A stretch of DNA of 64,000 nucleotides from Candidatus Nanoarchaeia archaeon (GCA_041651575.1 JBAZJB010000001.1:639286-703285), one strand, 5' to 3'; numbered from the stretch's first letter, positions 11,144-24,750 are shown. The notes: a model not told the origin generated them from the letters alone. A program made the numbers and translations.

Positions 11144-11452
11144 ATGAAAACGTTATTGGAACTAAAGAAAGAACTGCAAGATCTCCAAAACAAACATAAA
11201 GATATATCTGATAGAATAGAAACACAAAATAAGATTGATAAATTAAAGGAACAAATTATATTATTAGAATTAAAAAAGATTAAACCTGCAAAAAAAGTTA
11301 ATAATCCTGTTTTGAAGGTTATTAAAACTATTTTTATAGGATTTGGTAAAACAGGAAAGTATATTTGGAATAATGGTTTGAAAGGAATGTTTGAACATTT
11401 AGGAAGAGCAGGGATTAAAATGCACAATCTTGATAATAAAAAAAAGAAATAA
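11144..11452 (+). CDS. small coiled-coil hypothetical protein
   Basis: ATG at 11144 directly follows the cdc48 stop. Charged heptad-like N-terminal half. Confidence 0.35.
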   Translation: MKTLLELKKELQDLQNKHKDISDRIETQNKIDKLKEQIILLELKKIKPAKKVNNPVLKVIKTIFIGFGKTGKYIWNNGLKGMFEHLGRAGIKMHNLDNKKKK

Positions 11453-11453
11453 A

Positions 11454-12101
11454 ATGAGCTTTAAACTATCCCCCAGTTCGTTATCTTTAATGGAAGATTG
11501 TCCTAGATGTTTTTGGCTTACACAACATAAAGTCTGGTCAAGACCTGCATCTATATTTCCTTCTTTACCTTCTGGAATGGATTCTATTTTAAAGAAACAT
11601 TTTGATAAATTTATGGAAAAAGGAGAATTACCTCCTGAATTGAATAAATCTGAGTGTAAAGGTAGTTGTAGCTTGTTTAATGATCAGGAAAAACTAAGTA
11701 TTTGGAGAAGCAATTTTAAAGGCATTTCTTTTACTGATAAAGAGGGAAATATATTACATGGGGCTATTGATAATATACTTGTTAAAGGAAAGAAATTGAT
11801 TGTTTTGGATTATAAGACTAGAGGATTTCCATTAAAAGAAGATACTCATGAACATTATCAGAATCAACTGGATATTTATAATTTTTTACTTAGAAAAAAT
11901 GGATATGAAACAGAAGATTATGGTTTTTTATTGTTTTATCATCCTAAAGAAGTTTTAGAAAATGGGGATGTTGTTTTTAATACTGATCTTAAGAAGATGA
12001 AAATTGATGTTGATAACGCTAAGAAAATATTTATTAAGGCTATTGAGTTGCTAAATAAGGATTGTCCTACTAAACATTGTGTTTGGTGCGAGGGGAAATA
12101 A
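11454..12101 (+). CDS. Cas4-like PD-(D/E)XK nuclease with cysteine cluster (stand-alone, no CRISPR nearby)
   Basis: N-terminal CPRCFWL. GAIDNILV...VLDYKT gives D...(D/E)xK. QLDIYNFLL is QxxxY-like. C-terminal CPTKHCVWC. ATG at 11454. Confidence 0.7.
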   Translation: MSFKLSPSSLSLMEDCPRCFWLTQHKVWSRPASIFPSLPSGMDSILKKHFDKFMEKGELPPELNKSECKGSCSLFNDQEKLSIWRSNFKGISFTDKEGNILHGAIDNILVKGKKLIVLDYKTRGFPLKEDTHEHYQNQLDIYNFLLRKNGYETEDYGFLLFYHPKEVLENGDVVFNTDLKKMKIDVDNAKKIFIKAIELLNKDCPTKHCVWCEGK

Positions 12102-12102
12102 G

Positions 12103-15100
12103 ATGGAAAATTTGTTTTTAACAGATCAGGATGTTATAAAGATTTTTAAAGAACATTTAAAAATAGAAAGCAGGGTTATTCCAATAGAAGAATTATTTAA
12201 GATTAGAAATAAAAATAAAATAGATTTTAAACCTTATTACCAGAGAAATTATGTTTGGAATAATGAAAAAGCATCATATTTTATCGAAAGTTTATTAATT
12301 GGAACAGAAATTCCCCCACTCATTTTTTTCCATGGAAACAATAATAATATTGAGATTATTGATGGTAGGCAAAGATTTGAAACAATATATAATTTTTTAG
12401 AAGATAAATTAACATTAAATGAAAAGGGTTTAATTATACTTAAAAGTTTAGATAAAATAAAGTATTCTAAATTGGCCCCAGAATTATTAACTAGATTTTT
12501 AGAATCTAAGATTAGGGTAATTGATTTTAAATTAATTAATGAACCTAAATTGGATATAAAAAAAGAAGATTTAATTAAAAAAGAAATTTTCAGAAGGTAT
12601 AATTCAGGAATAACTCCTTTGAGAAGGTCCGATGTAGATAAAGCCGTTTTCATAGACGATCCCATTACTAAAAAGCTAAAAGATAAATTTGTTGCAGATA
12701 AAGATTTTTATTTAAAAAATGTAGTGCTATTTTATCCCAAAAAAAGGGATTATAATAGTAAATCTACATTAGAAGAATTAATTTCTAAGATTAGATTATT
12801 ACTCGTTCTTCATTTAATACCTACTAAATATTATTCTACATTAAAAAATAGAAAAGATATAATGAATATGCTTTATAATAAATATTCCGAAGAGCAAGAA
12901 GATTTAACCTCTTTTTTAAATGAATATGAAAAAAAGATATCCTATATTAATAATATTAAAAATAGTTTCAGTACAGATAATTATAACCAATTAATGTCAG
13001 AATGTCTTTTTTGGGTTTTTAATGTTATTGAAAATGAAGGGTACTCATTAAAAGACATTTTAGATGTACCTTTTATAGAAAGTATATCTAAGAGTTTAGA
13101 AAATAATTGTGATATTTATAGTGAAAAAAATTCACATTTTTTTAAAGAATTTAATCAAAGATATAGATTTACTTTAGAGATATTTGAAAAAAAATTAATG
13201 AAAGATTTTAAAATTTATTTAGACTTATATAATGCTAAAGAAGTGAGGGATAACATTGACTTATCCAAAACTGATGAAAAGGCAGGAATTTTAGAAAATT
13301 CATTTATTACAAAACCTGCTCCAATGGATATGACCATAGAATCTATAATTATTAAGATGGAAAGGAATAATTTTAAGGTTAGGCCTATCTATCAAAGAAG
13401 CGAAGTTATGAACATAAGCAAAGCTTCCTCTTTAATTGAAAGTATTTTATTGGATATAAAATTACCTCCTATATTTATTTATAAAAATAAAAATTCTGTT
13501 TCGGAAGTAGTTGATGGACAACAAAGAATTTTAGCTATTTTAGGTTTTATTGGAAAAAGTTATAAAGATGAAAATGGAAATATAGTTAAATCTAATAAAA
13601 ATGATTTTAAATTAAAAAATTTAACCATTTTAAAAGAATTAAATGGTCTTAAATTTAGTCAACTAGAAGAAAAATATCAAAATAGGATATTAGATTTTAA
13701 TTTATTCATTGTTGAAATTGATTCTTCAATTAATGAAAACTTTAATCCAATAGATTTATTTATAAGACTTAATTCTAAACCTTACCCTATTAAAGAAAAT
13801 ACTTTTGAAATGTGGAATTCATATGTGGATATAGAGATAATTAAAAAAATAAAGGAAAATACTAAAAAAATAGAAAATTGGTTTTATATTAAAAAACCCG
13901 AAAGTGATAAAAGGATGGAAAATGAAGAGTTGTATACCACCTTAGTTTATATAAATTATATGCAAGAGTATCAATCTGAGAAATTTTCTAAGATAGTTGA
14001 TATTCATAAAAGGGATGATAGAATTAATTGTAGGATTTCTGATAAAAAGGATATTTCAAAGGTATTAAATTATTCTTCTATAGATGAAAATGAAAAAGAA
14101 AAATTTATTGCTTCTATAAAAAATATTGAAGCAATTATGTTAAAAATCAAGACTTTATTAATAAGATCAAATATAGAAGAAGGAAAATTAGATAATTATC
14201 TAGAAAGTGAATTGGATAAATTATTCTATTTAAAAGCTAGGAGAAGATTACAAAATTTTTATCTTTTATACCCATTGATTAAAAGTATTAATTTAGAAAG
14301 AGTTAGAGAAAAAAGAGAAGAACTTTTTAATGATATTCTTGAGACTTATAAAAGAACCTCGAACCTTAAAGAAAATGAGGATGAGGAAGTTTATTTTGAA
14401 AAAATATCTTTATTGGATGATAAATGGACGCGTGACAAAAGGAAAATAATATTAACTTTAGAAGAAAAGAAACAAATATTATTAAATCAAAAAAATTTCT
14501 GTCCACTTTGTAATTCAGTTCTTTTCCATGGGGAAGATATCGAAGTAGACCATATAATTCCCATTTCCATGGGGGGAAAAGATAAAATAGAGAATTTACA
14601 AATTACTCATAAGGATTGTAACAGGAAAAAAGGAACTAAAAACATTAAAAAATATTTATATGAACCCATTAATTTAGAGGATATTGAAGTATACTTATCT
14701 AAGCACGAAAATGAAAATTTAGAATTTAAATCTACTTTATCCTGGAATATTAAAGGTAAATTAAGAGATACTGAAATTGAAAATTCGGTATTAAAAACTA
14801 TAGCTGCTTTTAATAACTTTGATGGGGGGGTATTACTAATAGGAATTGATGATAATAAGAATATATTGGGATTAGATTATGATTTTAAGGAAGGAAATTT
14901 AAAAGATGTAGACAAATTTGAGAATCATTTAAGGAATATTATCAAAGAAAGATTAATAGCAGAACAATGGTATATATCAAAAAACTTCAAAATTTCTTTT
15001 GAAAACATTGAAAATAAAATAGTTTGTATAATTAAAATTGATAAGGGCACAAAACCAATATATACTAAAGATAACAAATTTTTCATAAGAAACGGAAATA

Positions 15101-15162
15101 GAACTATTCAGTTAGAACTCAGCGAAATTGTACAATATGTAAAAAATAATTTTGAAGAGTGA
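12103..15162 (+). CDS. 1019-aa multidomain protein: DUF262 (ParB-like) x2 + HNH nuclease + AlbA_2/Schlafen-type domain
   Basis: Module 1: YYQRNYVWNNEKASYFIESLL...IIDGRQRFETI. Module 2, from about codon 425: IYQRSEVMNISKASSLIESILL...VVDGQQRILAI. HNH: CPLCNS...EVDHIIPISMGGKDKIENLQITHKDCNRKKG. C-terminus: NLEFKSTL...IAAFNNFDGGVLLIGIDDNKNILGLD. ATG at 12103 lies 1 nt after the Cas4-like stop. Confidence 0.8.
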   Translation: MENLFLTDQDVIKIFKEHLKIESRVIPIEELFKIRNKNKIDFKPYYQRNYVWNNEKASYFIESLLIGTEIPPLIFFHGNNNNIEIIDGRQRFETIYNFLEDKLTLNEKGLIILKSLDKIKYSKLAPELLTRFLESKIRVIDFKLINEPKLDIKKEDLIKKEIFRRYNSGITPLRRSDVDKAVFIDDPITKKLKDKFVADKDFYLKNVVLFYPKKRDYNSKSTLEELISKIRLLLVLHLIPTKYYSTLKNRKDIMNMLYNKYSEEQEDLTSFLNEYEKKISYINNIKNSFSTDNYNQLMSECLFWVFNVIENEGYSLKDILDVPFIESISKSLENNCDIYSEKNSHFFKEFNQRYRFTLEIFEKKLMKDFKIYLDLYNAKEVRDNIDLSKTDEKAGILENSFITKPAPMDMTIESIIIKMERNNFKVRPIYQRSEVMNISKASSLIESILLDIKLPPIFIYKNKNSVSEVVDGQQRILAILGFIGKSYKDENGNIVKSNKNDFKLKNLTILKELNGLKFSQLEEKYQNRILDFNLFIVEIDSSINENFNPIDLFIRLNSKPYPIKENTFEMWNSYVDIEIIKKIKENTKKIENWFYIKKPESDKRMENEELYTTLVYINYMQEYQSEKFSKIVDIHKRDDRINCRISDKKDISKVLNYSSIDENEKEKFIASIKNIEAIMLKIKTLLIRSNIEEGKLDNYLESELDKLFYLKARRRLQNFYLLYPLIKSINLERVREKREELFNDILETYKRTSNLKENEDEEVYFEKISLLDDKWTRDKRKIILTLEEKKQILLNQKNFCPLCNSVLFHGEDIEVDHIIPISMGGKDKIENLQITHKDCNRKKGTKNIKKYLYEPINLEDIEVYLSKHENENLEFKSTLSWNIKGKLRDTEIENSVLKTIAAFNNFDGGVLLIGIDDNKNILGLDYDFKEGNLKDVDKFENHLRNIIKERLIAEQWYISKNFKISFENIENKIVCIIKIDKGTKPIYTKDNKFFIRNGNRTIQLELSEIVQYVKNNFEE

Positions 15163-15217
15163 GTTATTAACTCAAGATTGCCCAAAGAAAACCTGGGAAT
15201 GGCGTGAAGGGAAATGA
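15158..15217 (+). pseudogene. decayed duplicate of the Cas4-like gene 3' end
   Basis: Ungapped alignment to 12042-12101 gives about 39 of 60 nt identical (hand count). Translation SELLTQDCPKKTWEWREGK* versus IELLNKDCPTKHCVWCEGK*. The cluster cysteines are replaced by W and R. Confidence 0.55.
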
Positions 15218-15375
15218 AAAAATTAAAAAAACCAATAAAATTAGAAGATTTATATTATAATACAAAAGGTCCAATTAAAACAATAACTTTTAACACTTTC
15301 AAAACAGTAACTTTTGGTAAACTAAAGAGCGCTATAACTGGAAAAGAAATAACTCTAAGAAAAAAGAAAAAATGA
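15214..15375 (+). CDS. possible 53-aa basic ORF (below the track length cutoff)
   Basis: ATGA overlap with the remnant stop. Translation MKKLKKPIKLEDLYYNTKGPIKTITFNTFKTVTFGKLKSAITGKEITLRKKKK. No family recognised and it may be non-coding. Confidence 0.2.
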   Translation: MKKLKKPIKLEDLYYNTKGPIKTITFNTFKTVTFGKLKSAITGKEITLRKKKK

Positions 15376-15478
15376 GAATTAAAATGATATCCCCTATTTA
15401 TAGGCCTTATAACCTTTGTTTTTAAGCATAATAAACAATCATTAAGTTAAAAATAATAGACTTAATGAATTAACAACC

Positions 15479-15489
15479 TTTATATATAA
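15479..15489 (+). promoter_or_regulatory. TATA box of the hsd operon
   Basis: TTTATATATAA lies 25 nt before the hsdM ATG, the same spacing as other leaderless genes in this window. Confidence 0.5.
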
Positions 15490-15503
15490 GTTCTACATTT
15501 CTA

Positions 15504-17276
15504 ATGAGTATGATATCTAACAAGAAGGATTGGTTAGAGAAAAGATATTACCTTTTATTAGAAGAATTTAAAGATAGAGAATTTGATAGAGAAGAAGTAA
15601 TAAAGGTTTTAACTGAAAAAAGCCATGACTATAAAGACAGTGTACCTGTAATACTGACAGAATTAAAAAATGAGGGTTATCTTAATGTTAGATTAGACCC
15701 AAAAGATTCTAGAAAAAGGCTTTATACTTTAAAATCAAACAATGAAATAATAAAAGAAAAATTAAATTTAAATAAAGAAGTCTTAACAAGACAAGATATT
15801 GATAGAATATTAAAAAAAGCAGCCGATTTAATTAGAACAAGGGTGGATTATAAATTTATACTTATATTACTTTTTTTAAAAAGAATTTCTGATAAATGGG
15901 AAGAAGAATTTGAACATGTATTAAAAGATATAGAAAAAGAGGGTTTATCTGGAGATGCAGCAATTAATGAAGCTAAACGTACAGAATATCATAAATTTGA
16001 TTTACCTGAAGAATACTTATGGGATAATTTAAGGAAAGAGGTTGAAAAACTTCCTGAAAAATTTTCTGAAGCATTGAAAAATATTGCTGAAAGAAATCCC
16101 GAATTGCGAGATGCTTTAGAAAATACTGATTTTATTCAATTTACATCAAATAATGAAAATGCTGAATTATTAAGACAGCTTGTTGAATTATTTTCAGAAA
16201 AGAAATTACATCATGTATCTCCCGATATATTAGGGGATGCCTATGAATGGATTTTGAGATATTTTGCACCAGATAAAGCCAAAGAAGGAGAGGTATATAC
16301 TCCCAGAGAAGTTATTCAACTTATTGTTGAAATCTTAAAACCTTTGGCAAAGGAAAGTGTTTATGATCCGACCTGCGGAAGTTCTGGAATGTTGATTTCT
16401 TCATATAAGTATGTTGAAGAAAAACAAGGAAAAGAAGGAGCAAGAAAATTATTTTTATTTGGACAAGAGTATAATCCTAAGACTTTGGCTTTAGGAAGAA
16501 TGAATATGTATATTCATGATATTAGAGACTTTAATCTACAAGGTGGTGATACTTTGATATATCCAAGATTAAAGCAAGGTGATGAACTACAAAAATTTAA
16601 CATTGTAATCGCAAATCCCCCCTGGAATCAAGATGGTTATGATGAATCAAGACTAAAGCAAGGAGAATTTTGGAAAACCCGTTTTAAATACGGTTTTGTT
16701 CCAGGACAATCAGCAGACTGGGCATGGATTCAGCATATGTTAGCTTCTTCTAAAGATGATACTGGGAGAATTGGGGTTGTCATGGATAATGGTTGTTTAT
16801 TCAGAAGTGGAAAAGAAAAAGCGATTAGGCAAAGAGTAATTGAAGAAGATTTAATAGAAGCAGTCCTTCTTTTGCCAGAAAAATTATTCTATAACACGGG
16901 AGCTCCTGGAGCAATCATTATTTTAAGGAAAAATAAACCTAAAGAAAGAAAAGGGAAGATTCTTTTCATCAATGCTTCAAATGAATATGAAAAACATCCT
17001 GATGTTAGAAAGCTGAATACTCTTACAAAAGAGAATATGAAGAACATAGTTCATGCCTATGACAAGTTTGAATATAAGGAAGGATTCTCAAGGGTGGTTG
17101 ATAAAAAAGAGCTTAAAGAAAATGATTTTAACTTGAATGTTTCATTATATATATATCCAGAAGAGGAACATGAAAATATTGATGTTCATAAAGAATGGTC
17201 TGAACTGAAAACATTAGAAAAAGAGAGAGGCGAATTAGACAAGAAGATTGAATTATTCTTGAAGGAGATAAAGTAA
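15504..17276 (+). CDS. hsdM: type I restriction-modification methyltransferase subunit HsdM with extra N-terminal winged-helix domain
   Basis: Motif I VYDPTCGSSGML. Motif IV IANPPWNQ (NPPW, N6-adenine). HsdM_N-like LFLKRISDKWEEE. The first ~95 aa look wHTH-like (LTELKNEGYLNVRLDPKDSRKRLYTL). Confidence 0.92.
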   Translation: MSMISNKKDWLEKRYYLLLEEFKDREFDREEVIKVLTEKSHDYKDSVPVILTELKNEGYLNVRLDPKDSRKRLYTLKSNNEIIKEKLNLNKEVLTRQDIDRILKKAADLIRTRVDYKFILILLFLKRISDKWEEEFEHVLKDIEKEGLSGDAAINEAKRTEYHKFDLPEEYLWDNLRKEVEKLPEKFSEALKNIAERNPELRDALENTDFIQFTSNNENAELLRQLVELFSEKKLHHVSPDILGDAYEWILRYFAPDKAKEGEVYTPREVIQLIVEILKPLAKESVYDPTCGSSGMLISSYKYVEEKQGKEGARKLFLFGQEYNPKTLALGRMNMYIHDIRDFNLQGGDTLIYPRLKQGDELQKFNIVIANPPWNQDGYDESRLKQGEFWKTRFKYGFVPGQSADWAWIQHMLASSKDDTGRIGVVMDNGCLFRSGKEKAIRQRVIEEDLIEAVLLLPEKLFYNTGAPGAIIILRKNKPKERKGKILFINASNEYEKHPDVRKLNTLTKENMKNIVHAYDKFEYKEGFSRVVDKKELKENDFNLNVSLYIYPEEEHENIDVHKEWSELKTLEKERGELDKKIELFLKEIK

Positions 17277-17277
17277 G

Positions 17278-17577
17278 ATGGAAGTAAAACGAGCTTTCCA
17301 AATTTTAGTTTATGGTATAGTCTTAATTGCCCTAATTGGAACTCTTATTGGGCTTTCCACCAAGGTAGTAGATAATATTATTAATCTATTTATTTCAGCA
17401 GGTTTGGGTTTAGTTTTTGCTGCAATTTCTGGAAAAGTTATTGAATTATTCTCAGATGATACTCTGAAAGAAATATTTTGGACAGTTGAATTTGAACTGT
17501 GGGGCTATGAGATTGAAATACCAATTTCCTTGTTTACTATATTCACAATAATAATTAGATTATGGTGGTTTGGATAA
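17278..17577 (+). CDS. 99-aa three-TM membrane protein embedded in the hsd operon
   Basis: Hydrophobic segments ILVYGIVLIALIGTLIGL, LFISAGLGLVFAAISG and ISLFTIFTIIIRLWWF. Starts 1 nt after the hsdM stop. Confidence 0.55.
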   Translation: MEVKRAFQILVYGIVLIALIGTLIGLSTKVVDNIINLFISAGLGLVFAAISGKVIELFSDDTLKEIFWTVEFELWGYEIEIPISLFTIFTIIIRLWWFG

Positions 17578-17578
17578 A

Positions 17579-18577
17579 ATGGCTAAAAACAAAAACAGAA
17601 AAACTTTAAGAAAACCATTATTGAACCCCGAGTATTATAAGGAATTAGAATCTGATGAAATTTATTCAGATAATACAAGATTGGGAAAAGTTTTTGGAGC
17701 AAAAAATAAGTTAAATAATCAAAAGTTTATTAGGGCAATTTCCGAGTCAAAAAGACCTTATGGATGGAGAAAAAACTATGGGTTTGATTTATTTGATTCA
17801 TTACATTTAGACAAGCTTATAAATTCCTTGAAAAAAATTGCAAGAAAATTTGGATGGAAATTTAAAGATGTTGAAGAAGACTTTTCAAAGCTAAAAGAGG
17901 GTATAAGGCAACAACAAGAAATAATCTCAAATTTAAGTAAAGCAAATAAGGATGCAAAAGTTAATTATGAAATATTACTTAAAAAATATAAGGAACAGGA
18001 AGAAAAGGAGATTATAAGCAGGGCTAGCGAATTTAATACAGCAATAGAAAATTTAAGAAGCAAAATCCTGGAAGTAGAAAGTAGGCGTATAGCAGAAAGC
18101 GAACTACAAGAATTTTTATATAAAAACAGTTGGATGTTGGGAACAGAATATATTAGCTCAGAGCCTCAAAAGATGAGGGGTGCAAGGAGTAGATTTGATT
18201 TTTATCTGGAAAGATTTAACAAAACTAATGATGTTGTTGAAATTAAATTATTATCTGACAAGATAATAAATCAAGATGAGAGCATAAGTGCAAAAGTAAT
18301 TCAAGCAGTAGATCAATTAATTGACTATTTAGAAAAAACAATTAGCGTTGCACATAGTACAACGGAATCTGAAGAAGAAGGAATAAAAGAATTAAGACCG
18401 AGAGGAATTTTGATAATAGGAAAGGACAATTCTTTAGAAGCGAAAAAAAAGTTAAATAAATGGAATTATCAATTTGTCCATATTCATATTTATACTTACC
18501 AAGATATTTTAGAAAAAGCAGAAGCATTAATGAAACATATTGAAAAGAGAAAACATAAAAATGAAACAACAAACTAA
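17579..18577 (+). CDS. Shedu-like (DUF4263) PD-(D/E)xK nuclease-domain protein with coiled-coil N-terminal half
   Basis: C-terminal half reads ESELQEFLYKNSWMLGTEY...SRFDFYL...DVVEIKLL...AVDQLIDYLEK...PRGILIIGK...IHIYTYQDILEKAE. This follows the DUF4263/SduA nuclease pattern (D...ExK, Q..Y, viG, tYd.ll). ATG at 17579. Confidence 0.65.
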   Translation: MAKNKNRKTLRKPLLNPEYYKELESDEIYSDNTRLGKVFGAKNKLNNQKFIRAISESKRPYGWRKNYGFDLFDSLHLDKLINSLKKIARKFGWKFKDVEEDFSKLKEGIRQQQEIISNLSKANKDAKVNYEILLKKYKEQEEKEIISRASEFNTAIENLRSKILEVESRRIAESELQEFLYKNSWMLGTEYISSEPQKMRGARSRFDFYLERFNKTNDVVEIKLLSDKIINQDESISAKVIQAVDQLIDYLEKTISVAHSTTESEEEGIKELRPRGILIIGKDNSLEAKKKLNKWNYQFVHIHIYTYQDILEKAEALMKHIEKRKHKNETTN

Positions 18578-19757
18578 AATCCCTGAAAATTGGAAATTGA
18601 AAGAAATAAAAGAAATCTTTAGTGTTGAGACCGGAACAACGCCCCCAACCAAAGAAAAGATTTACTGGGAAAATGCTACAATAAACTGGGCAACTCCTGC
18701 TGATCTTGGAAAACTAAATGGAAATATACATTTTCAAGAGAGTGAAAGGAAGATTTCTAAAACTGCATTGAATGACATAAATTTAACATTGATGCCCAAG
18801 AATACTATTATTGTTTCGACAAGAGCCCCAGTGGGATATGCAGTTGTCATAAAAAAAGAGAGTACATTTAACCAGGGATGCAAGGGTCTCATTCCTAAAA
18901 AAGAAAATGATGCTGATCCATATTTCTATTGTTATTATTTAATAAATAAAAAGTATGAATTACAAAATCGAGCTGGGCAAAGCACATTTAAGGAGCTGTC
19001 TAAAGATATGTTTGAAAGTTTTGAGGTATTACATCCTCCATTTGAAGAACAAAAAGCAATTTCTAAGATTTTTTCAGAAGTTGATTTAGAATTAGATAGT
19101 ATAGAGAGAGAGAGACAAGCAACAGAGCGACTCAAGAGGGGTATTATGGTAAGGTTGCTCGAAGGGAAAAAATGGAAGGTTGTTAAATTGGGAGAGATAG
19201 TAGAATTTGCGAAGGGCAAAAAACCCCAACTAATGATTGATGAACAAAAAGAAGATTATCTGCCTTATTTGTCTACGGACTATTTAAGAGAAAACTTAGG
19301 AACTAAATATGTTTCCCCTTCAGAAGATGTGGTCTTAGTTAAAAATGGAGAAATAATACTATTGTGGGACGGCTCAAATGCCGGAGAATTTTTTGAAGGA
19401 AAAGAAGGAGTTTTATCAACCACAATGGTTAAATTTGATCTTAAAACGGACATTCATCAAAAATATCTTTTATATCTGTTAAAGTCTAAACAATTTTATC
19501 TACAAGGACAAACAAATGGAACAGGGATACCTCATGTTGATAGAAAAGTTTTGATGAATTTAGATATTTCTTTGCCTCTAATTGAAGAACAAAAACATAT
19601 CGCTGAAATATTAAACACCCTAGATCAAAAACTTGAGCTTGAACTAAAAAGAAAAGATAAACTTGAAAGAATCAAGAAAGGTTTAATGAATGATCTCCTA
19701 GCTGGAAATAAAAGAGTCAATATTGAAAAGGTCTTGAAAATTGGGGGCGGAAAATGA
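18561..19757 (+). CDS. hsdS: type I R-M specificity subunit HsdS (two target-recognition domains)
   Basis: IPENWKLKEIKEIFSVETGTTPP and WKVVKLGEIVEFAKGKKP start two TRDs. Conserved helical spacers are EEQKAISKIFSEVD and EEQKHIAEILNTLD. Confidence 0.85.
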   Translation: MKQQTKIPENWKLKEIKEIFSVETGTTPPTKEKIYWENATINWATPADLGKLNGNIHFQESERKISKTALNDINLTLMPKNTIIVSTRAPVGYAVVIKKESTFNQGCKGLIPKKENDADPYFYCYYLINKKYELQNRAGQSTFKELSKDMFESFEVLHPPFEEQKAISKIFSEVDLELDSIERERQATERLKRGIMVRLLEGKKWKVVKLGEIVEFAKGKKPQLMIDEQKEDYLPYLSTDYLRENLGTKYVSPSEDVVLVKNGEIILLWDGSNAGEFFEGKEGVLSTTMVKFDLKTDIHQKYLLYLLKSKQFYLQGQTNGTGIPHVDRKVLMNLDISLPLIEEQKHIAEILNTLDQKLELELKRKDKLERIKKGLMNDLLAGNKRVNIEKVLKIGGGK

Positions 19758-20494
19758 CTTTTGATGATGAAACAAAACAGAGAATCTTTCAACAGGCTAT
19801 TGATATTTTTGTAATCCCTGAAATAGAAAGGAGAAAAAAGATAAATAAATTACCTTCAGATTTTAAATTAGATAAAATCCAAATTATATTTTCTTCCAAG
19901 AGTGGAAGAAATTATGTAAGACTAAATAAGGAAGTTGATGTAATTATTAAATGCAAGGTAAATAAGCCTATCAAAAAAGGGGATATAGTTTATGAGAACG
20001 ATATAGATCAAATTGAGTCAGTTGAACTAACAAAAGGAGATTTAAATTATGGGCATATTACTTTATTAGCTTTTAAGGGGAATTGGATAGTTTCATTTAA
20101 TTTTATTTATAATAAAGAAGAAATTAAGAAGCATATTGAAGCATCTAAAGAGTTCTATGAAAGTGCAAAAGATAATTTAGAAAAGAAAAGATTAAGACCT
20201 TTTTTTGAGAATGCTTTTGCTTGTGCTGAATTATTTACTAAAAGTGTATTATTATCTTTGCCAAATAAAAAGTTCTTTGAAGGAAAAGACCATCGAAAAA
20301 AAAAGGAGTTTCTTAAAAATTGGGCAAATTTAGGAAATGTTAAAATTGAGTTTAGCACGACCTTGTCTAAACTATACTCTCTGAGAAGTTCAGCGAGGTA
20401 TCTTTCTTCTGATAACTACAAAAAAGAAAATGCTAAAGGAATACTTTCAATATTAGATGAGATGATTAAATCTTCGGAGGACCTAACAAAATGA
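19754..20494 (+). CDS. protein with C-terminal classical HEPN-like domain, embedded between hsdS and hsdR
   Basis: AFACAELFTKSVLL...GKDHRKKKEFL...LSKLYSLRSSARYLSSD follows the HEPN helical pattern (KavLl..H..l...L..lR..a.Y). The N-terminal ~120 aa are unassigned. ATGA overlaps on both sides. Confidence 0.45.
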   Translation: MTFDDETKQRIFQQAIDIFVIPEIERRKKINKLPSDFKLDKIQIIFSSKSGRNYVRLNKEVDVIIKCKVNKPIKKGDIVYENDIDQIESVELTKGDLNYGHITLLAFKGNWIVSFNFIYNKEEIKKHIEASKEFYESAKDNLEKKRLRPFFENAFACAELFTKSVLLSLPNKKFFEGKDHRKKKEFLKNWANLGNVKIEFSTTLSKLYSLRSSARYLSSDNYKKENAKGILSILDEMIKSSEDLTK

Positions 20495-23400
20495 CACAAC
20501 AAAATGAAAAGAAACTGGTAGAGAATTATATGATTGATAAGTTTGTTAATCAGAATAAATGGACTTACATTCCTGGAGGCAAACTTGAAAGAGAAAGCAA
20601 TGAAGAGCCTCTTTTAATTAAGAATCTTGTTTCTGCTATAAAGAAGATAAATGATACTAATTTATCTGAAGAAGATATTCAAGAAGTTTTGAAACAACTT
20701 AGATTAAGAGGCGTTGGGGTTGATGATTCTAAAAAGATTTTAGGATTCTTTAAGTTTGGAGTTTCAGTAAAACTCTCTAAGACTAAAGAGCTTGTTAGAG
20801 TCAAGTTATTTGATTATGATCATGTTGATAACAACGAGTTTATTGTAACTAATCAAATTCATTATGAATCTTCAGCTGGGGAAATTATTCCAGACATTGT
20901 TTTGTATGTTAATGGTATACCTTTAGTTATAATCGAATGTAAAGATATGACTTCTTCGTCTACAAGTTGGAAAGATGCTTATAATGATATTGTTGGAATT
21001 TATAGAAATAAGGTTAGAGAACCCTTCAAGTATTTTCAAATTGGAGTTGCAGCAGAACAAAAAGTAAAATATTTTCCAATAGTTTCGTGGGCTGAGGATA
21101 TTAAAGTTTGTGAGTGGAGAGATGAAAATAGAATAGAATTAGGAACAGATAGTTCTATGACTGGAATATTTGAGATGCTAACTAAAGAAGGCTTATTAAA
21201 TCTTATTAGAGATTTCATTTTTGTAAGAGAAGAGGGGGGAGAGAAAACAAAAGTAATTACAAGATATATGCAATATAGGGCAGTTAATAAAATCGTGGAT
21301 AGGGTTAAAACCAACATAGAAGGAAAAGAAAAAAAGAACAAAGGTTTAGTTTGGCATTGGCAAGGATCAGGAAAAACATTGACAATGGCTTTTGCAGCGC
21401 ACAAATTGTATTATCTTAAAGAATTAGAAAATCCAACCCTCTTTTTTATTTTAGATAGAACCGAACTTGAAGAACAGATGTATAATGAATTAAATGCTTT
21501 AGAGATGCCAAAAGTAGAGTCTATAGGATCAATTCAAGAATTAAAAAGAATATTAGAATATGATGAAGGAAAAGGTAAAAGAGGATTATTTACAATACTT
21601 ATCCATAAGTTTAGACCTGGAGACTTTGAAGATTTAAGAAAAGAATTAGAAAATAAGGATGTAGATAAACAAACCTTTTTGACAAGAAAAAATGTTATCG
21701 CTTTTATTGATGAAAGTCATAGATCTCAATATGGTCTACTTGCTTCTCAGATGAAAGCACTTTTAAAAAATGCTTTCTTTTTTGCATTTACTGGAACACC
21801 AATAAACAAAAAAGATAATAAAAATACATATCTTGAATTTGCTTATCCCCCCACCGAATTATATCTTGATAAATATTTTATTAAAGATGCCATTAGTGAT
21901 GGATTTACTTTAAAAATAGCTTATCAACCAAGACTTGAAAAAGAAGTTCATCTAAAAACAGACCAACTTACAATTTTGTTAGAAGCTGAAGATGTAGAAC
22001 TACCAGATGAAAAAAGAAAAGAATTTCAAGAAAGAGTAAAGAAAAATATTACAATACAAAAAGCTTATTATAAAAATAGGGAAAGAATAAAGAGGATTAG
22101 CGAAGATATAACAAAACACTTCAAAGAAAATCTCGATGGAAGATTTAAAGCGATGATAGTTGCAGTTGATAGAGAAGCTTGCGTTCATTATAAAGAAGAA
22201 TTAGACAAATTATTGCCGGGATATTCAGAAATTGTAATGACTTTTACCTCTGATGAGAGATCTAAAGATATTCAAGAATATCTGAATAAACTTCATGAAA
22301 GATTCCCAAATAAAGAACTTTCTGAAATAATGAAAGAAATTACTGGAAAATTCAAAGAAGAAGAGAATCCAAAAATACTAATTGTTACAGATATGTTACT
22401 TACTGGTTTTGATGCTCCTATTTTGCAAACAATGTATTTAGATAAACCCCTAAGAGAACATAGGTTATTACAAGCAATAGCAAGAACTAATCGTCCATTT
22501 AAAAATGTTAAAGAAGCAGGTTTAATTGTAGATTATTTAGGAATATTAAAAGAATTTAAGAAAGCTTTTGAAATTTATACAAAAGAGGATATCAAAGGAG
22601 CTCTTTATGATCTGAATGAAATTAAGAAAGAGTTTGAAGATTTACTTAAAGAAACTTTAGATTTATTTAAAGATTATCCTGAAAGAAAATTGGATAGCAG
22701 GGTATATTTATTGGAAATAGTGAGAAGTTTATTAGCTGATTCTCTTAAATTAAGGAAATTTATAGATAATATTAAAGAGTTAAGAAAAAAGTTTGAACTT
22801 CTTGGATCAGATGAATCCAAAGTAATTTATTATAAAGAATTGATTTGGCTTGAGGCAATATATGAAACCTATAAAAAAGAAGTATATCAAGAGACAGAAG
22901 ATGAAACTGATACTTATTTAAGAAAATATTTTGCTAAAACAATTAGATTTATTCACAAAAGCACAGAAATTGAGAATCTTAAAGAAAACTTACCTGTTAT
23001 AGATTTTGATGAGAATTATATTAAAAAATTAGAAGAAAAATATAAAACTAAAGAAGAAAGAGCCGCAAACATTGTATTTACATTAAATAGGTATATACTT
23101 GTGGATAGAGATGACAAAAAACTTTATGAAACTTTAATTGATAAAGTACAAAGATTATTTGATTCTTGGAGAACTAAAACAAAAGATTTTGAAACAATTT
23201 ATAAGGAAGGAATAAAAATCATTCAAGAAAGAAATAAACTTCTTCAAAGGAAGAAAGATCTTAAATTAAGTAATTTTGAATTTTCATCATTAATCCTTTT
23301 AGAAAAAAAGATAGGGGAAGAAAAAGTTCTTATAGAAGATATTAAAGAATTAGCAAAAGAGCTTTTCAGTGAGAAATATATATTCACAAATTGGACATCT

Positions 23401-23547
23401 CAAATTTTTACTAAAAAAGAAATTCAAAAAGTAATAAGGAAGTTATTACTAGGTTATATTAAAAAATATAATCTATCTATAGAAGATGTTAATGAGCTAA
23501 GCTTAAAAATATTTGAAAACTTGAAACAATATGAAAAAAGAGGTTAA
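20491..23547 (+). CDS. hsdR: type I restriction enzyme subunit HsdR
   Basis: N-terminal nuclease IPDIVLYVNGIPLVIIECK. Helicase motif I WHWQGSGKTLTMAF, motif II FIDESHRSQ, and QAIARTNRP. 1018 aa. Confidence 0.92.
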   Translation: MTQQNEKKLVENYMIDKFVNQNKWTYIPGGKLERESNEEPLLIKNLVSAIKKINDTNLSEEDIQEVLKQLRLRGVGVDDSKKILGFFKFGVSVKLSKTKELVRVKLFDYDHVDNNEFIVTNQIHYESSAGEIIPDIVLYVNGIPLVIIECKDMTSSSTSWKDAYNDIVGIYRNKVREPFKYFQIGVAAEQKVKYFPIVSWAEDIKVCEWRDENRIELGTDSSMTGIFEMLTKEGLLNLIRDFIFVREEGGEKTKVITRYMQYRAVNKIVDRVKTNIEGKEKKNKGLVWHWQGSGKTLTMAFAAHKLYYLKELENPTLFFILDRTELEEQMYNELNALEMPKVESIGSIQELKRILEYDEGKGKRGLFTILIHKFRPGDFEDLRKELENKDVDKQTFLTRKNVIAFIDESHRSQYGLLASQMKALLKNAFFFAFTGTPINKKDNKNTYLEFAYPPTELYLDKYFIKDAISDGFTLKIAYQPRLEKEVHLKTDQLTILLEAEDVELPDEKRKEFQERVKKNITIQKAYYKNRERIKRISEDITKHFKENLDGRFKAMIVAVDREACVHYKEELDKLLPGYSEIVMTFTSDERSKDIQEYLNKLHERFPNKELSEIMKEITGKFKEEENPKILIVTDMLLTGFDAPILQTMYLDKPLREHRLLQAIARTNRPFKNVKEAGLIVDYLGILKEFKKAFEIYTKEDIKGALYDLNEIKKEFEDLLKETLDLFKDYPERKLDSRVYLLEIVRSLLADSLKLRKFIDNIKELRKKFELLGSDESKVIYYKELIWLEAIYETYKKEVYQETEDETDTYLRKYFAKTIRFIHKSTEIENLKENLPVIDFDENYIKKLEEKYKTKEERAANIVFTLNRYILVDRDDKKLYETLIDKVQRLFDSWRTKTKDFETIYKEGIKIIQERNKLLQRKKDLKLSNFEFSSLILLEKKIGEEKVLIEDIKELAKELFSEKYIFTNWTSQIFTKKEIQKVIRKLLLGYIKKYNLSIEDVNELSLKIFENLKQYEKRG

Positions 23548-24106
23548 AATATTTAATTCAAGCATACAATATTGTATAGATTATCGTAGTGTGAAATATC
23601 CTAGATTAGAATTTAGAACAGGAATGTTAAATATCATACTTCCCTATGATTATGAAAATGAGCATAATCTATTAAATATACATAAAAATTGGATAATAAA
23701 AAAACAGAGAGCTATTAATTTTGCATTAAATAAATCAAAGGACAAACAATTAATAAATAGAAATTTAAATAACTTAAAAAAGATTGTTTTAGATTATTAT
23801 AACAAAAATTCCAATAATTTTAAAGCTAAAAAAATACAATTTAGACATATGAAATCAAAATGGGGGAGTTGTAGTTCAGATAAAGTTTTGACCTTTAATT
23901 CACTTTTAAGATTTTTACCTCTAAATCTTATTCAATATGTTGTTTATCATGAAATGTTACATCTCAAAGAAAAAAAACACAATAAAACCTTTTGGAATAT
24001 CATTTCTAAAAAGTTTACGAATTATCCATTAAAAGAAAAAGATTTATTTATATATTGGTTTTTAATACAAAAAAATTATAATTTAAATTTTTCTTTAAAA
24101 CTATAA
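23531..24106 (+). CDS. DUF45/YgjP-type zinc metallopeptidase-fold protein
   Basis: VVYHEMLHLKEKKHNKTFW (HExxH...H) and the N-terminal Y.l.rs.r pattern (CIDYRSVKYPRLEF). 17-nt overlap with the hsdR end. Confidence 0.72.
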   Translation: MKKEVKIFNSSIQYCIDYRSVKYPRLEFRTGMLNIILPYDYENEHNLLNIHKNWIIKKQRAINFALNKSKDKQLINRNLNNLKKIVLDYYNKNSNNFKAKKIQFRHMKSKWGSCSSDKVLTFNSLLRFLPLNLIQYVVYHEMLHLKEKKHNKTFWNIISKKFTNYPLKEKDLFIYWFLIQKNYNLNFSLKL

Positions 24107-24750
24107 TAATTATCCTTTCCCAAAATAATATGATCTAATAAAGGTATATTTAAAATTTCTCCTACTTCTTTTATTTTAACTGTAGTAAATATGTCTCCTT
24201 CACTAGGATTACAATCTCCAGAAGGATGATTATGGACTAAAATAATAGATTTAGCACTTTCTCTAATAGCTTCCTTAAAAATTTCTCTTGGATGTGCTAA
24301 AGAACTATCCAAAGTACCAATACTAACAACAGTTCTTTTAATAATCTTATTTTTAACATCTAAATACAAACAAATAAAATATTCTTTTTTCTCATTTCCA
24401 TATTCATCAACTAATAAATCATAAACATCCTTAGCACAACTAATACTATTTTTAAAACCTTCACGTTTTAATTTATTATATCTTTTAAAAAGTTCAATTA
24501 AGCTTAAAACCTTTAAAACTTTAACTTTATCACCTTTAAACTCTCTTAAAAGTTCATTAAAACCAAGATCTTCAAGTTTATTCAAGTTATATTTCTTTAA
24601 TAGTCTATTACTCATCTCTAAAGCACTTTCTCTATAACTTCCTTCCCAAAAGAGAATAGATAATAACTCTGCTTCATCTAAATTTTTAGCTCCTTTTCTA
24701 ATTAATTTAGAATCGGGTCTATTAAACGAAGGAAGATCAAAGATTCTCAT
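24076..24750 (-). CDS. radC: RadC-like JAB/MPN domain protein
   Basis: ILVHNHPSGDCNPSEGD (JAMM-like HxHPSG) and an N-terminal HhH-like region AELLSILF. Converges on the DUF45 gene with a 31-nt overlap. Confidence 0.85.
   Translation of the reverse strand: MRIFDLPSFNRPDSKLIRKGAKNLDEAELLSILFWEGSYRESALEMSNRLLKKYNLNKLEDLGFNELLREFKGDKVKVLKVLSLIELFKRYNKLKREGFKNSISCAKDVYDLLVDEYGNEKKEYFICLYLDVKNKIIKRTVVSIGTLDSSLAHPREIFKEAIRESAKSIILVHNHPSGDCNPSEGDIFTTVKIKEVGEILNIPLLDHIILGKDNYYSFKEKFKL

What the first reader, a model, noticed from the sequence alone, without database searches (positions are those of the whole stretch)
15504..24106. Type I R-M operon with three embedded non-R-M genes (3-TM peptide, Shedu-like nuclease, HEPN protein) and a trailing DUF45 metallopeptidase
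Seen: seven same-strand ORFs with essentially no spacing. The order is hsdM 15504-17276, 1-nt gap, 3-TM ORF 17278-17577, 1-nt gap, DUF4263-like ORF 17579-18577, 17-nt overlap, hsdS 18561-19757, ATGA overlap, HEPN-like ORF 19754-20494, ATGA overlap, hsdR 20491-23547, 17-nt overlap, HEMLH protein 23531-24106. One TATA box (15479-15489) precedes hsdM and there is no room for internal promoters. Established: canonical type I loci contain only hsdR/M/S. The classical exception is the prr locus, where the anticodon nuclease PrrC sits inside the hsd genes and is held latent by the R-M complex. DUF45/YgjP-type proteins are frequent hsdR neighbours. Inference: two different predicted nucleases are co-transcribed and translationally coupled with the R-M subunits, suggesting a layered defence in which R-M status gates backup effectors. 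I do not recognise the order M-TM-Shedu-S-HEPN-R as a described system. This is the best candidate in the window for a novel composite system.
Basis: partly seen in the sequence, partly recalled or inferred. Interest (0 to 1): 0.8.

Follow-up and report, generated by a model that had tools for sequence, protein, structure and literature searches.

The report
Restriction operon carrying embedded defence genes
An archaeal type I restriction-modification operon carries three extra genes (a Shedu DNA nuclease, a HEPN protein and a small membrane protein) packed between its subunit genes; this kind of nesting is already documented, so the locus is a new example of it, but two of the nested gene families are uncatalogued.

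Summary
Seven same-strand ORFs (15504-24106) have gaps of +1, +1, -17, -4, -4 and -17 nt. Profile and fold searches confirm every domain call: HsdM, HsdS, HsdR, SduA_C/Shedu, HEPN and YgjP/DUF45.

The inserts are recurrent R-M cargo, not chance neighbours.
- **Shedu-like gene.** It lies just upstream of hsdS in 17 distinct loci, mostly DPANN archaea. One derived clade is standalone.
- **99-aa 3-TM protein.** It sits inside a type I operon in 9 of 9 close-homologue loci, across two unrelated Hsd families and several phyla.
- **HEPN family.** It is nested in type I (two families), II, IIG and III R-M loci.

The cargo is modular. The closest Shedu relatives (75-80% identity) flank HsdM proteins only 25-31% identical. 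Sister operons carry other known defence genes in the same slots (a second Shedu, Cap15 next to a weakly CD-NTase-like gene, YhcG, AlbA_2, NYN).

Embedding of defence genes in type I R-M is already described: PrrC; Payne 2024 "guilt-by-embedding"; Gu 2023 (602 Shedu genes inside R-M); Anantharaman 2013 (HEPN-R-M linkage).

Verdict: a compact, co-transcribed layered-defence operon, and a new member of a known kind. PrrC-like gating by R-M status is untested and disfavoured for Shedu. The TM and HEPN families have no PADLOC model and are the residual novelty.

The parts
15479..15486 (+). TTTATATA, candidate archaeal TATA box 18 nt upstream of the hsdM ATG (leaderless-type promoter)
   Evidence: The motif is over-represented in the window (35 hits against 20.5 expected), and several copies lie about 25-45 nt upstream of ORF starts. 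Promoter function is inferred, not shown.
15504..17276 (+). hsdM, type I m6A methyltransferase subunit, with an extra N-terminal region of about 95 aa (weak winged-helix match)
   Evidence: Pfam N6_Mtase 7.9e-107 and HsdM_N 1.2e-15. PADLOC MTase_I 3.5e-111. NPPW and DPTCGSSG motifs read in the translation. MsvR-like match to residues 19-80, E 1.2e-4.
17278..17577 (+). 99-aa three-TM membrane protein, embedded cargo (slot 1)
   Evidence: 16 close homologues, all 98-99 aa, 63-86% identical. 67 representative clusters, nearly all 89-125 aa, with invariant Glu56. Codon positions 1+2 are about 0.8 identical against about 0.5 at position 3. 9 of 9 close-homologue loci lie inside type I operons. No Pfam match above the curated cut-off; no PADLOC, NCBIfam or PHROG hit.
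17579..18577 (+). Shedu (SduA) PD-(D/E)XK nuclease with a beta-beta-beta-beta-alpha N-terminal domain and a helical linker, embedded cargo (slot 1)
   Evidence: SduA_C 2.4e-13. PADLOC SduA 4.5e-20. Invariant E173, D207, E221, K223 and Q246, which align with B. cereus SduA motifs I-IV. AF2 model pLDDT 84.9. Best Foldseek hits 8ti9 and 8ti8 Shedu, E 1.3e-5.
18561..19757 (+). hsdS, specificity subunit with two target-recognition domains
   Evidence: Methylase_S, two stretches, 1.8e-60. PADLOC Specificity_I 1.6e-58.
19754..20494 (+). 246-aa protein: an N-terminal helix plus six-strand beta domain with no structural match (1-120), then a HEPN-T (AF_0298-like) domain (121-246). Embedded cargo (slot 2).
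   Evidence: HEPN PF05168 2.4e-7. 173 homologues of about 244 aa. Invariant H180, R211, R215 and Y216, with no Rx4-6H histidine. AF2 pLDDT 88.6. Best Foldseek hit 2hsb, TM-score normalised to the target 0.72.
20491..23547 (+). hsdR, restriction/translocase subunit
   Evidence: HSDR_N 8.7e-32, SWI2_SNF2 1.4e-56, T1R_D3-like 6.3e-26. TIGR00348 hsdR 6.3e-199. GSGKT, DESH and D...ECK motifs read in the translation.
23531..24106 (+). DUF45/YgjP-like zincin (HEMLH), a conserved downstream partner of this HsdR family
   Evidence: YgjP-like 4.3e-25. The same hsdR-DUF45 overlap is seen in L002, L004, L009, L030, L047 and L050.
11430..15162 (+). Flanking defence genes of the same island: a Cas4-like PD-(D/E)XK protein (11430-12101) and a 1027-aa GmrSD_N x2 + HNH + Schlafen/AlbA_2 protein (12079-15162)
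   Evidence: Homologues of the Cas4-like protein (60-78% identity over the aligned parts) sit next to type I/HEPN loci L016, L025, L026, L030/31 and L033.

Best explanation
This is an intact type I R-M operon (hsdM-hsdS-hsdR plus its usual DUF45 partner) in a DPANN-type archaeon. It has been used as a docking site for three independently mobile defence genes, so that one promoter expresses a compact, layered defence island.

**Slot 1 (between hsdM and hsdS)** holds two genes.
- A small three-TM protein.
- A Shedu nuclease. Its architecture (beta-rich sensor-like N-domain, helical linker, DUF4263 PD-(D/E)XK core with all four catalytic motifs) matches autoinhibited, self-contained Type 1A Shedu enzymes. 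I infer that it senses single-stranded DNA or DNA ends and cuts DNA on its own. It may also finish off the linear fragments made by HsdR.

**Slot 2 (between hsdS and hsdR)** holds a HEPN-T protein.
- It lacks the canonical Rx4-6H histidine but keeps an invariant upstream His180 plus Arg211 and Arg215. This is the AF_0298-type alternative site.
- I infer that it is an RNase or RNA-binding toxin, regulated by its N-terminal domain, that acts as a second line of defence when restriction fails.

The three-TM protein is a dedicated type I R-M accessory whose mechanism is not established. It could be a membrane effector or an anchor.

**What is shown:** gene layout, folds, conserved catalytic residues, recurrent nesting of each family in R-M operons, and modular exchange of the cargo.

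**What is inferred:** co-transcription, enzymatic activity, triggers, and any synergy with restriction.
For: **Layout and coupling.**

**Archaeal host.** MCM with the archaeal winged helix, Topo VI-B, PolB and CDC48 are encoded in the window.

**Shedu-like protein.**
- Fold and motifs.
- Its beta-beta-beta-beta-alpha N-domain plus helical linker has the same layout as B. cereus Type 1A Shedu as described by Gu et al..
- It sits directly upstream of hsdS in 17 distinct loci, including all deep branches of the family tree.

**TM protein.**
- 9 of 9 close-homologue loci lie in type I operons of two Hsd families, from Woesearchaeota and Pacearchaeota genome bins and from homologues annotated as Parcubacteria and Caldisericia.
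- Selection acts at the protein level.

**HEPN family.** It is nested in window-type type I (L030-32), EcoEI-like type I (L016, L018, L019, L033-35), type IIG (L013, L020), type III between mod and res (L015; L017 retains the HEPN-res junction, its upstream side being at the contig end), and a type II MTase + HNH pair (L012).

**Modularity.**
- Sdu identity against HsdM identity gives rho 0.24. The 75-80% Sdu relatives flank HsdM proteins only 25-31% identical.
- Sister operons carry a second SduA_C, YhcG, AlbA_2, Cap15 next to a weakly CD-NTase-like gene, NYN or DUF4145 in the same slots.
- Most cargo families are singletons.

**Literature on embedding.**
Against: - No transcript data exist. 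One + strand TTTATATA lies inside the operon at 18115, so internal starts are not excluded.
- The persistence of Shedu at one position through deep divergence, and the 9 of 9 embedding of the TM protein, are tighter than a neutral 'genomic sink' would predict. They could reflect a direct functional tie to the R-M complex.
- The HEPN domain lacks the canonical catalytic His, so RNase activity is uncertain.
- The N-terminal sPC4/Whirly assignment rests on secondary-structure topology only. Foldseek returned no PC4/Whirly hit.
- The loci were found through the cargo genes, so how often type I operons carry cargo overall was not measured.
Confidence: 0.6

Rival explanations
1. PrrC-like guard. The HEPN protein, the Shedu nuclease or both are held inactive by physical contact with the HsdM/S/R complex. 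They are released when a viral anti-restriction factor disables it, which triggers abortive infection.
For: - PrrC precedent, and Anantharaman's proposal that R-M-linked HEPN proteins work this way.
- The HEPN family is nested in at least five kinds of R-M locus.
- The Shedu position upstream of hsdS is conserved through deep divergence.
- Stop/start overlaps suggest coupled synthesis.
Against: - The same HEPN family sits in type I, II, IIG and III systems, which share no common subunit to bind.
- Some HEPN homologues have no R-M neighbour (L023; L027, next to AbiEii).
- Shedu swaps between HsdM partners that are only 25-31% identical, has its own sensor-like domain, and has a standalone clade.
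- The HEPN protein has no ABC ATPase domain and no Rx4-6H histidine, unlike PrrC.
Confidence: 0.2
2. The inserts are auxiliary parts of the restriction machine itself. The TM protein would tether the R-M complex to the membrane where foreign DNA enters. The Shedu nuclease would be the post-restriction degradase that archaea, which lack RecBCD, need to destroy HsdR-cut DNA.
For: - The TM protein is found only in type I operons among its close homologues (9 of 9) and always upstream of hsdS.
- Shedu is always inside the hsdM-hsdS unit.
- Published Shedu enzymes sense DNA ends (title and abstract).
Against: - Several of the fetched type I operons that carry Shedu or HEPN lack a detectable TM homologue (for example L072 is M-Sdu-S-R only).
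- Two TM-bearing operons have no Shedu (L045, L069).
- A distant TM homologue pairs with a TIR-TM protein and a resolvase, with no hsd genes nearby.
- The standalone Shedu clade.
Confidence: 0.12
3. Neutral hitch-hiking. The inserts are selfish or decaying passengers that landed in a permissive locus and contribute nothing to defence.
For: - The genomic-sink argument discussed by Payne et al..
- Cargo diversity is extreme, and most families are singletons.
Against: - All three ORFs are intact, with invariant catalytic or motif residues, and show strong protein-level purifying selection.
- Two of them belong to fold families with proven defence roles.
- Tight packing is retained across many lineages.
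Confidence: 0.08

Closest known systems
Defence genes embedded in type I R-M systems ('guilt-by-embedding', Payne et al. 2024, bioRxiv 10.1101/2024.01.29.577857); TgvAB in Vibrio cholerae VPI-2
   Same: Co-oriented genes nested between hsd genes. The cargo includes known defence systems and many unknowns. Co-regulation and backup roles have been proposed.
   Different: - The host here is a DPANN-type archaeon with very tight (overlapping) packing.
- Two of the three cargo families (the TM protein and the N-domain + HEPN-T protein) have no PADLOC model, although that database includes the PDC candidates.
Shedu (SduA), Type 1A, e.g. Bacillus cereus B4264 (PDB 8ti8/8ti9); Shedu genes inside R-M loci (Gu et al.)
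   Same: - DUF4263 nuclease core with motifs I-IV, and a Foldseek match.
- N-domain, linker and nuclease layout.
- Gu et al. already counted 602 Shedu genes within type I-IV R-M loci.
   Different: - Only about 16% identity to the solved enzyme.
- This subfamily keeps one fixed position (just upstream of hsdS) through deep divergence.
- The N-domain fold assignment is not verified.
PrrC / EcoprrI (an anticodon nuclease held latent by a type Ic R-M system)
   Same: A HEPN-superfamily protein encoded between hsd genes of a type I system.
   Different: - No ABC ATPase domain and no Rx4-6H histidine. The HEPN branch is different (HEPN-T, AF_0298-like) and carries an N-terminal beta domain with no structural match.
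- The same family also occurs in type II, IIG and III loci.
- Gating is untested.
HEPN-T (PF05168) family typified by AF_0298 (PDB 2hsb)
   Same: - Best structural match.
- The motif His is absent, but a conserved His lies N-terminal to a retained Arg, exactly as Anantharaman et al. describe.
[quoted passage not shown]
   Different: - It has an extra conserved 120-aa N-terminal domain.
- There is no adjacent minimal nucleotidyltransferase (MNT) partner.

Membership tests
Type I restriction-modification system | HsdM with an N6-adenine MTase domain and the HsdM N-domain; AdoMet and NPPW motifs | tested here: met
   Pfam N6_Mtase 7.9e-107 and HsdM_N 1.2e-15. 'DPTCGSSG' and 'NPPW' read in the translation.
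Type I restriction-modification system | HsdS with two target-recognition domains | tested here: met
   Methylase_S, two stretches, 1.8e-60.
Type I restriction-modification system | HsdR with an N-terminal PD-(D/E)XK nuclease and an SF2 translocase | tested here: met
   HSDR_N, SWI2_SNF2, ResIII and T1R_D3-like. TIGR00348 6.3e-199, above the cut-off. GSGKT and DESH motifs.
Type I restriction-modification system | Methylation-dependent restriction activity | not testable with these tools
   Needs methylome or restriction assays.
Shedu (SduA) | C-terminal DUF4263/SduA_C PD-(D/E)XK domain with motifs I (E), II (D), III (ExK) and IV (Q) | tested here: met
   SduA_C 51 bits against a cut-off of 27. 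E173, D207, E221, K223 and Q246 are invariant in 27 sequences and align to B. cereus SduA.
Shedu (SduA) | Structural similarity to solved Shedu nucleases | tested here: met
   Foldseek 8ti9_A E 1.3e-5, probability 1.00; 8ti8 chains follow.
Shedu (SduA) | Type 1A: sPC4/Whirly-fold N-terminal sensor domain | tested here: inconclusive
   The AF2 model gives a beta-beta-beta-beta-alpha element (strands 20-65, helix 74-91) followed by a helical linker, as Gu et al. describe. No PC4/Whirly structure appeared in the Foldseek list.
Shedu (SduA) | Autonomous single-gene anti-phage activity; homotetramer | not testable with these tools
   Requires expression or phage assays and biochemistry.
HEPN superfamily (HEPN-T, PF05168) | HEPN four-helix fold / profile match | tested here: met
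   PF05168 31.3 bits against a cut-off of 22. The top Foldseek hits are HEPN structures (2hsb, 4nqf, 3o10, 1o3u, 1wol), though the best E-value is only 4.7e-3.
HEPN superfamily (HEPN-T, PF05168) | Rx4-6H endoRNase motif | tested here: not met
   The family consensus is L-R211-S-S-A-R215-Y216, with no His 4-6 residues after Arg. An invariant H180 lies upstream. This is the AF_0298-type deviation, for which Anantharaman et al. propose an alternative active site.
HEPN-MNT toxin-antitoxin | Adjacent minimal nucleotidyltransferase partner | tested here: not met
   The neighbours are hsdS and hsdR in the window. No NTase is adjacent in the loci inspected.
PrrC-type R-M-gated anticodon nuclease | N-terminal ABC ATPase fused to a HEPN ACNase with Rx4-6H | tested here: not met
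   No ATPase domain and no motif His.
PrrC-type R-M-gated anticodon nuclease | Encoded between the hsd genes of a type I system | tested here: met
   It recurs in L016, L018, L019 and L030-35.
PrrC-type R-M-gated anticodon nuclease | Kept latent by binding the R-M complex; released by anti-restriction | not testable with these tools
   No multimer prediction or experiment is available. Indirect evidence is against a specific Hsd partner.
Embedded defence cargo (Payne et al. definition) | Nested between genes of a multi-gene defence system, in the same orientation, with homologues recurrently embedded | tested here: met
   Definition.
DUF45 / YgjP-like zincin | PF01863 profile and an HExxH motif | tested here: met
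   89.4 bits against a cut-off of 26. 'HEMLH' read in the translation.

The most novel reading that the evidence does not exclude
The 99-aa three-TM protein, with its invariant Glu in an (I/V)E-x-(F/V)-x-(G/D)-(D/N)-x-(L/F)K loop, may be a previously unrecognised dedicated partner of type I R-M systems. It could be either a membrane-acting effector or adaptor, or a membrane tether for restriction complexes.

Three observations point that way.
- Among close homologues it is found only inside type I operons (9 of 9), across two unrelated Hsd families and both archaea and bacteria.
- It is usually followed, with no more than a 3-nt gap or a short overlap, by a swappable effector-like gene: Shedu here, an 'RDIFAH'-containing protein in L044 and L068, and TIR-TM after a distant homologue in L074.
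- The HEPN-T family with its N-terminal domain could likewise be a general 'R-M failure' sensor, since it is nested in type I, II, IIG and III systems.
Probability: 0.3. Interest if true: 0.6.

Novelty: new member of a known kind. Interest (0 to 1): 0.38.

Why it matters
The finding shows that DPANN archaea, and candidate-phyla bacteria that carry the same cargo families, pack known and unknown defence genes directly inside R-M operons, with overlapping reading frames. The same few cargo families are then shuffled between unrelated R-M backbones.

That gives two concrete, uncatalogued candidates for experimental defence screens: a 99-aa membrane protein and an N-domain + HEPN-T protein. It also gives a natural test case for whether embedding implies functional coupling (PrrC-like) or only co-expression.

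It does not reveal a new kind of system.

Tried and rejected
- **Plain tblastn with the window's Hsd proteins.** This missed the divergent EcoEI-like type I family and made the HEPN family look unlinked to R-M. I replaced it with precomputed Pfam context and jackhmmer with two Hsd seed sets.
- **Sequence search of PDB with the HEPN profile.** It found nothing. Only the fold search placed the protein.
- **NCBIfam and PHROGs.** Neither gave a hit for the three inserts, so a phage-gene origin has no support.
- **The sigma-70 promoter/terminator scan.** It was at or below shuffle expectation and does not apply to an archaeon, so I disregarded it.
- **Broad TM-family alignments A4 and A5.** They were too divergent for locus retrieval. 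A 3-sequence subset retrieved two loci, one of which was informative.
- **DNA-level conservation of the TM gene as a recombination site.** I rejected this because third codon positions are near saturation.
- **Co-evolution of Shedu with HsdM or HsdS.** I rejected this: rho is 0.24 and 0.09 respectively.
- **Source genome.** I did not try to identify it. Taxonomy is inferred from homologues and from archaeal replication genes.

Full report
**1. The observation**

A direct read of the junctions gives these gaps.

| Junction | Gap (nt) |
|---|---|
| hsdM/TM | +1 |
| TM/Shedu | +1 |
| Shedu/hsdS | -17 |
| hsdS/HEPN | -4 (ATGA) |
| HEPN/hsdR | -4 (ATGA) |
| hsdR/DUF45 | -17 |

All seven genes start with ATG. 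Four of the six internal genes are preceded by purine-rich SD-like motifs: AGGAG before TM, GGTGG before the Shedu gene, GGGGGCGG before HEPN and GGAGG before hsdR. hsdS and DUF45 have none. hsdM has none either, and it sits 18 nt after TTTATATA (15479-15486).

That octamer is over-represented in the window (35 hits against 20.5 +/- 5 expected). Several copies lie about 25-45 nt upstream of ORF starts. This fits leaderless archaeal promoters but is weak evidence in a 27% G+C genome. One + strand copy lies inside the Shedu gene (18115) and another inside the DUF45 gene (24047); neither is placed just upstream of a gene start.

The window is archaeal. It encodes MCM with the archaeal winged helix, Topo VI-B, family B polymerase and CDC48. 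The homologues retrieved are mostly from DPANN bins.

**2. What the genes are**

Pfam, PADLOC and NCBIfam confirm a complete type I R-M system.
- HsdM has N6_Mtase and HsdM_N. The NPPW and AdoMet motifs are visible in the translation.
- HsdS has two TRDs.
- HsdR has HSDR_N, SWI2_SNF2 and T1R_D3, and matches TIGR00348 at 6.3e-199.
- A YgjP/DUF45 zincin (HEMLH) follows.

The hsdR-DUF45 overlap recurs in L002, L004, L009, L030, L047 and L050. DUF45 is therefore a core companion of this Hsd family, not cargo.

*Insert 2 is a bona fide Shedu nuclease.*
- SduA_C scores 2.4e-13 and PADLOC SduA scores 4.5e-20.
- Motifs I-IV (E173, D207, E221/K223, Q246) are invariant in 27 relatives and align with B. 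cereus SduA.
- The AF2 model (pLDDT 84.9) has 8ti9 and 8ti8 as best hits (E 1.3e-5).
- The N-terminus is predicted as beta-beta-beta-beta-alpha (residues 20-91), followed by a long helical linker (99-167). This is the layout Gu et al. give for Type 1A (sPC4/Whirly) Shedu. The fold assignment is by topology only.

*Insert 3 is a HEPN protein.*
- It has a PF05168 HEPN domain (31.3 bits against a cut-off of 22).
- The model (pLDDT 88.6) best matches AF_0298 (2hsb) and other HEPN structures.
- The family (173 hits, about 244 aa) lacks the Rx4-6H histidine. Its consensus is L-R211-S-S-A-R215-Y, and it has an invariant H180 upstream. Anantharaman et al. describe exactly this deviation for the AF_0298 branch and propose an alternative active site.
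- Residues 1-120 form a conserved helix plus six-strand domain with no structural match.

*Insert 1 is a real gene.*
- It has 16 close homologues, all 98-99 aa, with mean column identity 79%.
- There are 67 representative clusters in 1.84 billion proteins, nearly all 89-125 aa, and one Glu is invariant.
- Identity at codon positions 1+2 is about 0.8 against about 0.5 at position 3. This indicates protein-level selection.

**3. Are the inserts tied to R-M operons?**

*Shedu subfamily.*
- In genome and metagenome loci I mapped Hsd genes by jackhmmer with two Hsd seed sets.
- The gene lies inside a type I operon in 17 distinct loci. It is almost always immediately upstream of hsdS with an overlap.
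- An NJ tree places the embedded state in every deep branch. A single derived clade (L005, L051-L059) is standalone.
- The association is not with one Hsd lineage. The closest relatives (75-80% identical: L001, L046, L070, L072) flank HsdM proteins only 25-31% identical to the window's. L046 sits in an EcoEI-like R...S...M operon. The closest HsdM proteins (62-63%) flank Shedu at 52-55%. Across all pairs, rho is 0.24.

*TM protein.*
- Every close-homologue locus examined lies in a type I operon, upstream of hsdS with zero to three genes between. These are the window, L036, L038, L042, L044, L045, L067, L068 and L069.
- The loci cover both Hsd families. The genome bins are Woesearchaeota and Pacearchaeota, and two homologues carry Parcubacteria and Caldisericia source names.
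- A distant homologue in a Thermoplasmata bin (L074, in the 27-38% identity range of the distant set) is instead followed by a TIR-TM protein and a resolvase.

*HEPN family.* It is nested in these kinds of locus.

| R-M context | Loci |
|---|---|
| Window-type type I | L030-32 |
| EcoEI-like type I | L016, L018, L019, L033-35 |
| Directly after MmeI-like type IIG enzymes | L013, L020 |
| Type III, between mod and res (L017 keeps only the HEPN-res junction; its upstream side is at the contig end) | L015, L017 |
| Type II, between an MTase and an HNH gene | L012 |

Other copies lie elsewhere (L023; L027, next to AbiEii).

**4. What the sister operons show**

The same two slots carry other defence genes in related operons.

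| Locus | Cargo |
|---|---|
| L001 | A second SduA_C protein |
| L004 | YhcG PD-(D/E)XK and Schlafen/AlbA_2 |
| L047 | Cap15 (1e-25) next to a gene with only sub-threshold CD-NTase-like matches, between Shedu and hsdS |
| L036 | NYN |
| L070 | DUF4145 (a faint match) |
| L038-41 (homologue named Parcubacteria by NCBI) | More than 15 nested genes between hsdR and hsdM |

Cargo families are mostly singletons. No locus fetched repeats the full M-TM-Shedu-S-HEPN-R-DUF45 order. The nearest is L030: divergent Shedu, S, a 190-aa ORF, HEPN at 92% identity, R, DUF45, then a Cas4-like gene.

**5. Interpretation**

The most economical reading is a compact, co-transcribed defence island built on a type I R-M backbone, with interchangeable cargo.
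- Shedu has the architecture of self-contained, autoinhibited enzymes, so it most likely senses and cuts DNA on its own.
- Its constant placement in the hsdM-hsdS unit suggests selection for co-expression. It may also suggest synergy through degradation of HsdR-generated ends. Both points are inferences.
- The HEPN protein's occurrence across R-M types argues for a generic link to restriction, such as backup when it fails. It argues against binding to a particular Hsd subunit.

**6. Comparison with the literature and novelty**

Nesting of defence genes in type I R-M is established.
- PrrC/EcoprrI, and at least 16 R-M-linked HEPN clades including HEPN-T.
- 602 of 5,499 Shedu genes lie within R-M loci.
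- The 'guilt-by-embedding' survey reports 17,432 genes embedded in BREX, DISARM or type I R-M systems and 96.7% co-orientation of embedded genes with the flanking system.

The locus is therefore a new member of a known kind. The residual novelty is that the TM family and the N-domain + HEPN-T family have no PADLOC model, although the PDC candidates are in that database. The strict type I embedding of the TM protein among its close homologues parallels what is said of PrrC.

**7. Limits**

- There is no transcript, interaction or phenotype data.
- Loci were ascertained through the cargo genes, so cargo frequency among all type I operons is unknown.
- Counts come from a few dozen loci.
- The Whirly-fold assignment and the HEPN active site are inferred.

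Noticed in passing
window 11430-12101 (+): A 223-aa Cas4-like PD-(D/E)XK protein with a C-terminal Cys cluster (PDDEXK_1 9.8e-10; phrog_31195 1.3e-36). Homologues 60-78% identical over the aligned parts lie next to type I/HEPN loci L016, L025, L026, L030/31 and L033. It looks like another recurrent R-M companion.
   Followed up: partly
window 12079-15162 (+): A 1027-aa protein with two GmrSD_N (DUF262) domains, an HNH domain and a Schlafen/AlbA_2 domain (PADLOC NsnA 2.8e-55). It is a type IV-like enzyme overlapping the Cas4-like gene by 23 nt, directly upstream of the R-M operon. The defence island therefore spans at least 11430-24106.
   Followed up: partly
window 15504-15790 (HsdM residues 1-95): HsdM carries an extra N-terminal region of about 95 aa with a weak winged-helix (MsvR-like) match (E 1.2e-4). 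L002, L036 and L047 have similarly long HsdM proteins (about 588 aa), whereas many other relatives are about 480-510 aa. It could be an autoregulatory DNA-binding domain.
   Followed up: no
window 24076-24750 (-): A RadC/JAB gene convergent with DUF45, overlapping its 3' end by 31 nt. In L072 a RadC gene sits directly upstream of hsdM in an M-Shedu-S-R operon.
   Followed up: no
window 15214-15375 (+): A Lys-rich 53-aa ORF in the 341-nt spacer between the GmrSD-like gene and hsdM. Not examined.
   Followed up: no
L047 7980-9441: Two genes nested between Shedu and hsdS inside a type I operon: a Cap15 effector (Cap15_CD_rec 1e-25) preceded by a gene with only sub-threshold CD-NTase-like/SMODS matches. 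This would be a CBASS-like pair.
   Followed up: partly
L038-L041 (same contig family; the TM homologue P0210 is named Parcubacteria by NCBI): A type I operon stretched to about 13 kb between hsdR and hsdM, with more than 15 co-oriented nested genes (SWIM, UvrD helicase, DUF3800, SEC-C, Bro-N and many unknowns).
   Followed up: no
L018, L019, L033, L038, L042, L044, L046 (just downstream of hsdR): EcoEI-like type I operons share a conserved ORF of about 60-86 aa immediately after hsdR (an 11-member cluster in the cargo clustering). In L042 and L044 it overlaps the TM gene start.
   Followed up: no
L074 7905-9158: A distant homologue of the TM protein in a Thermoplasmata bin is followed by a TIR-TM protein (PADLOC 1.8e-53) and a resolvase, with no hsd genes. 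In L044 and L068 the gene after TM contains an 'RDIFAH' (Rx4H-like) motif. This hints that the TM protein pairs with varied effectors.
   Followed up: partly
L003 918-1253: An apparently unrelated 111-aa multi-TM ORF occupies the same hsdM-Shedu position as the window's TM gene. It did not cluster with other cargo, and the TM-seeded jackhmmer search did not pick it up.
   Followed up: no
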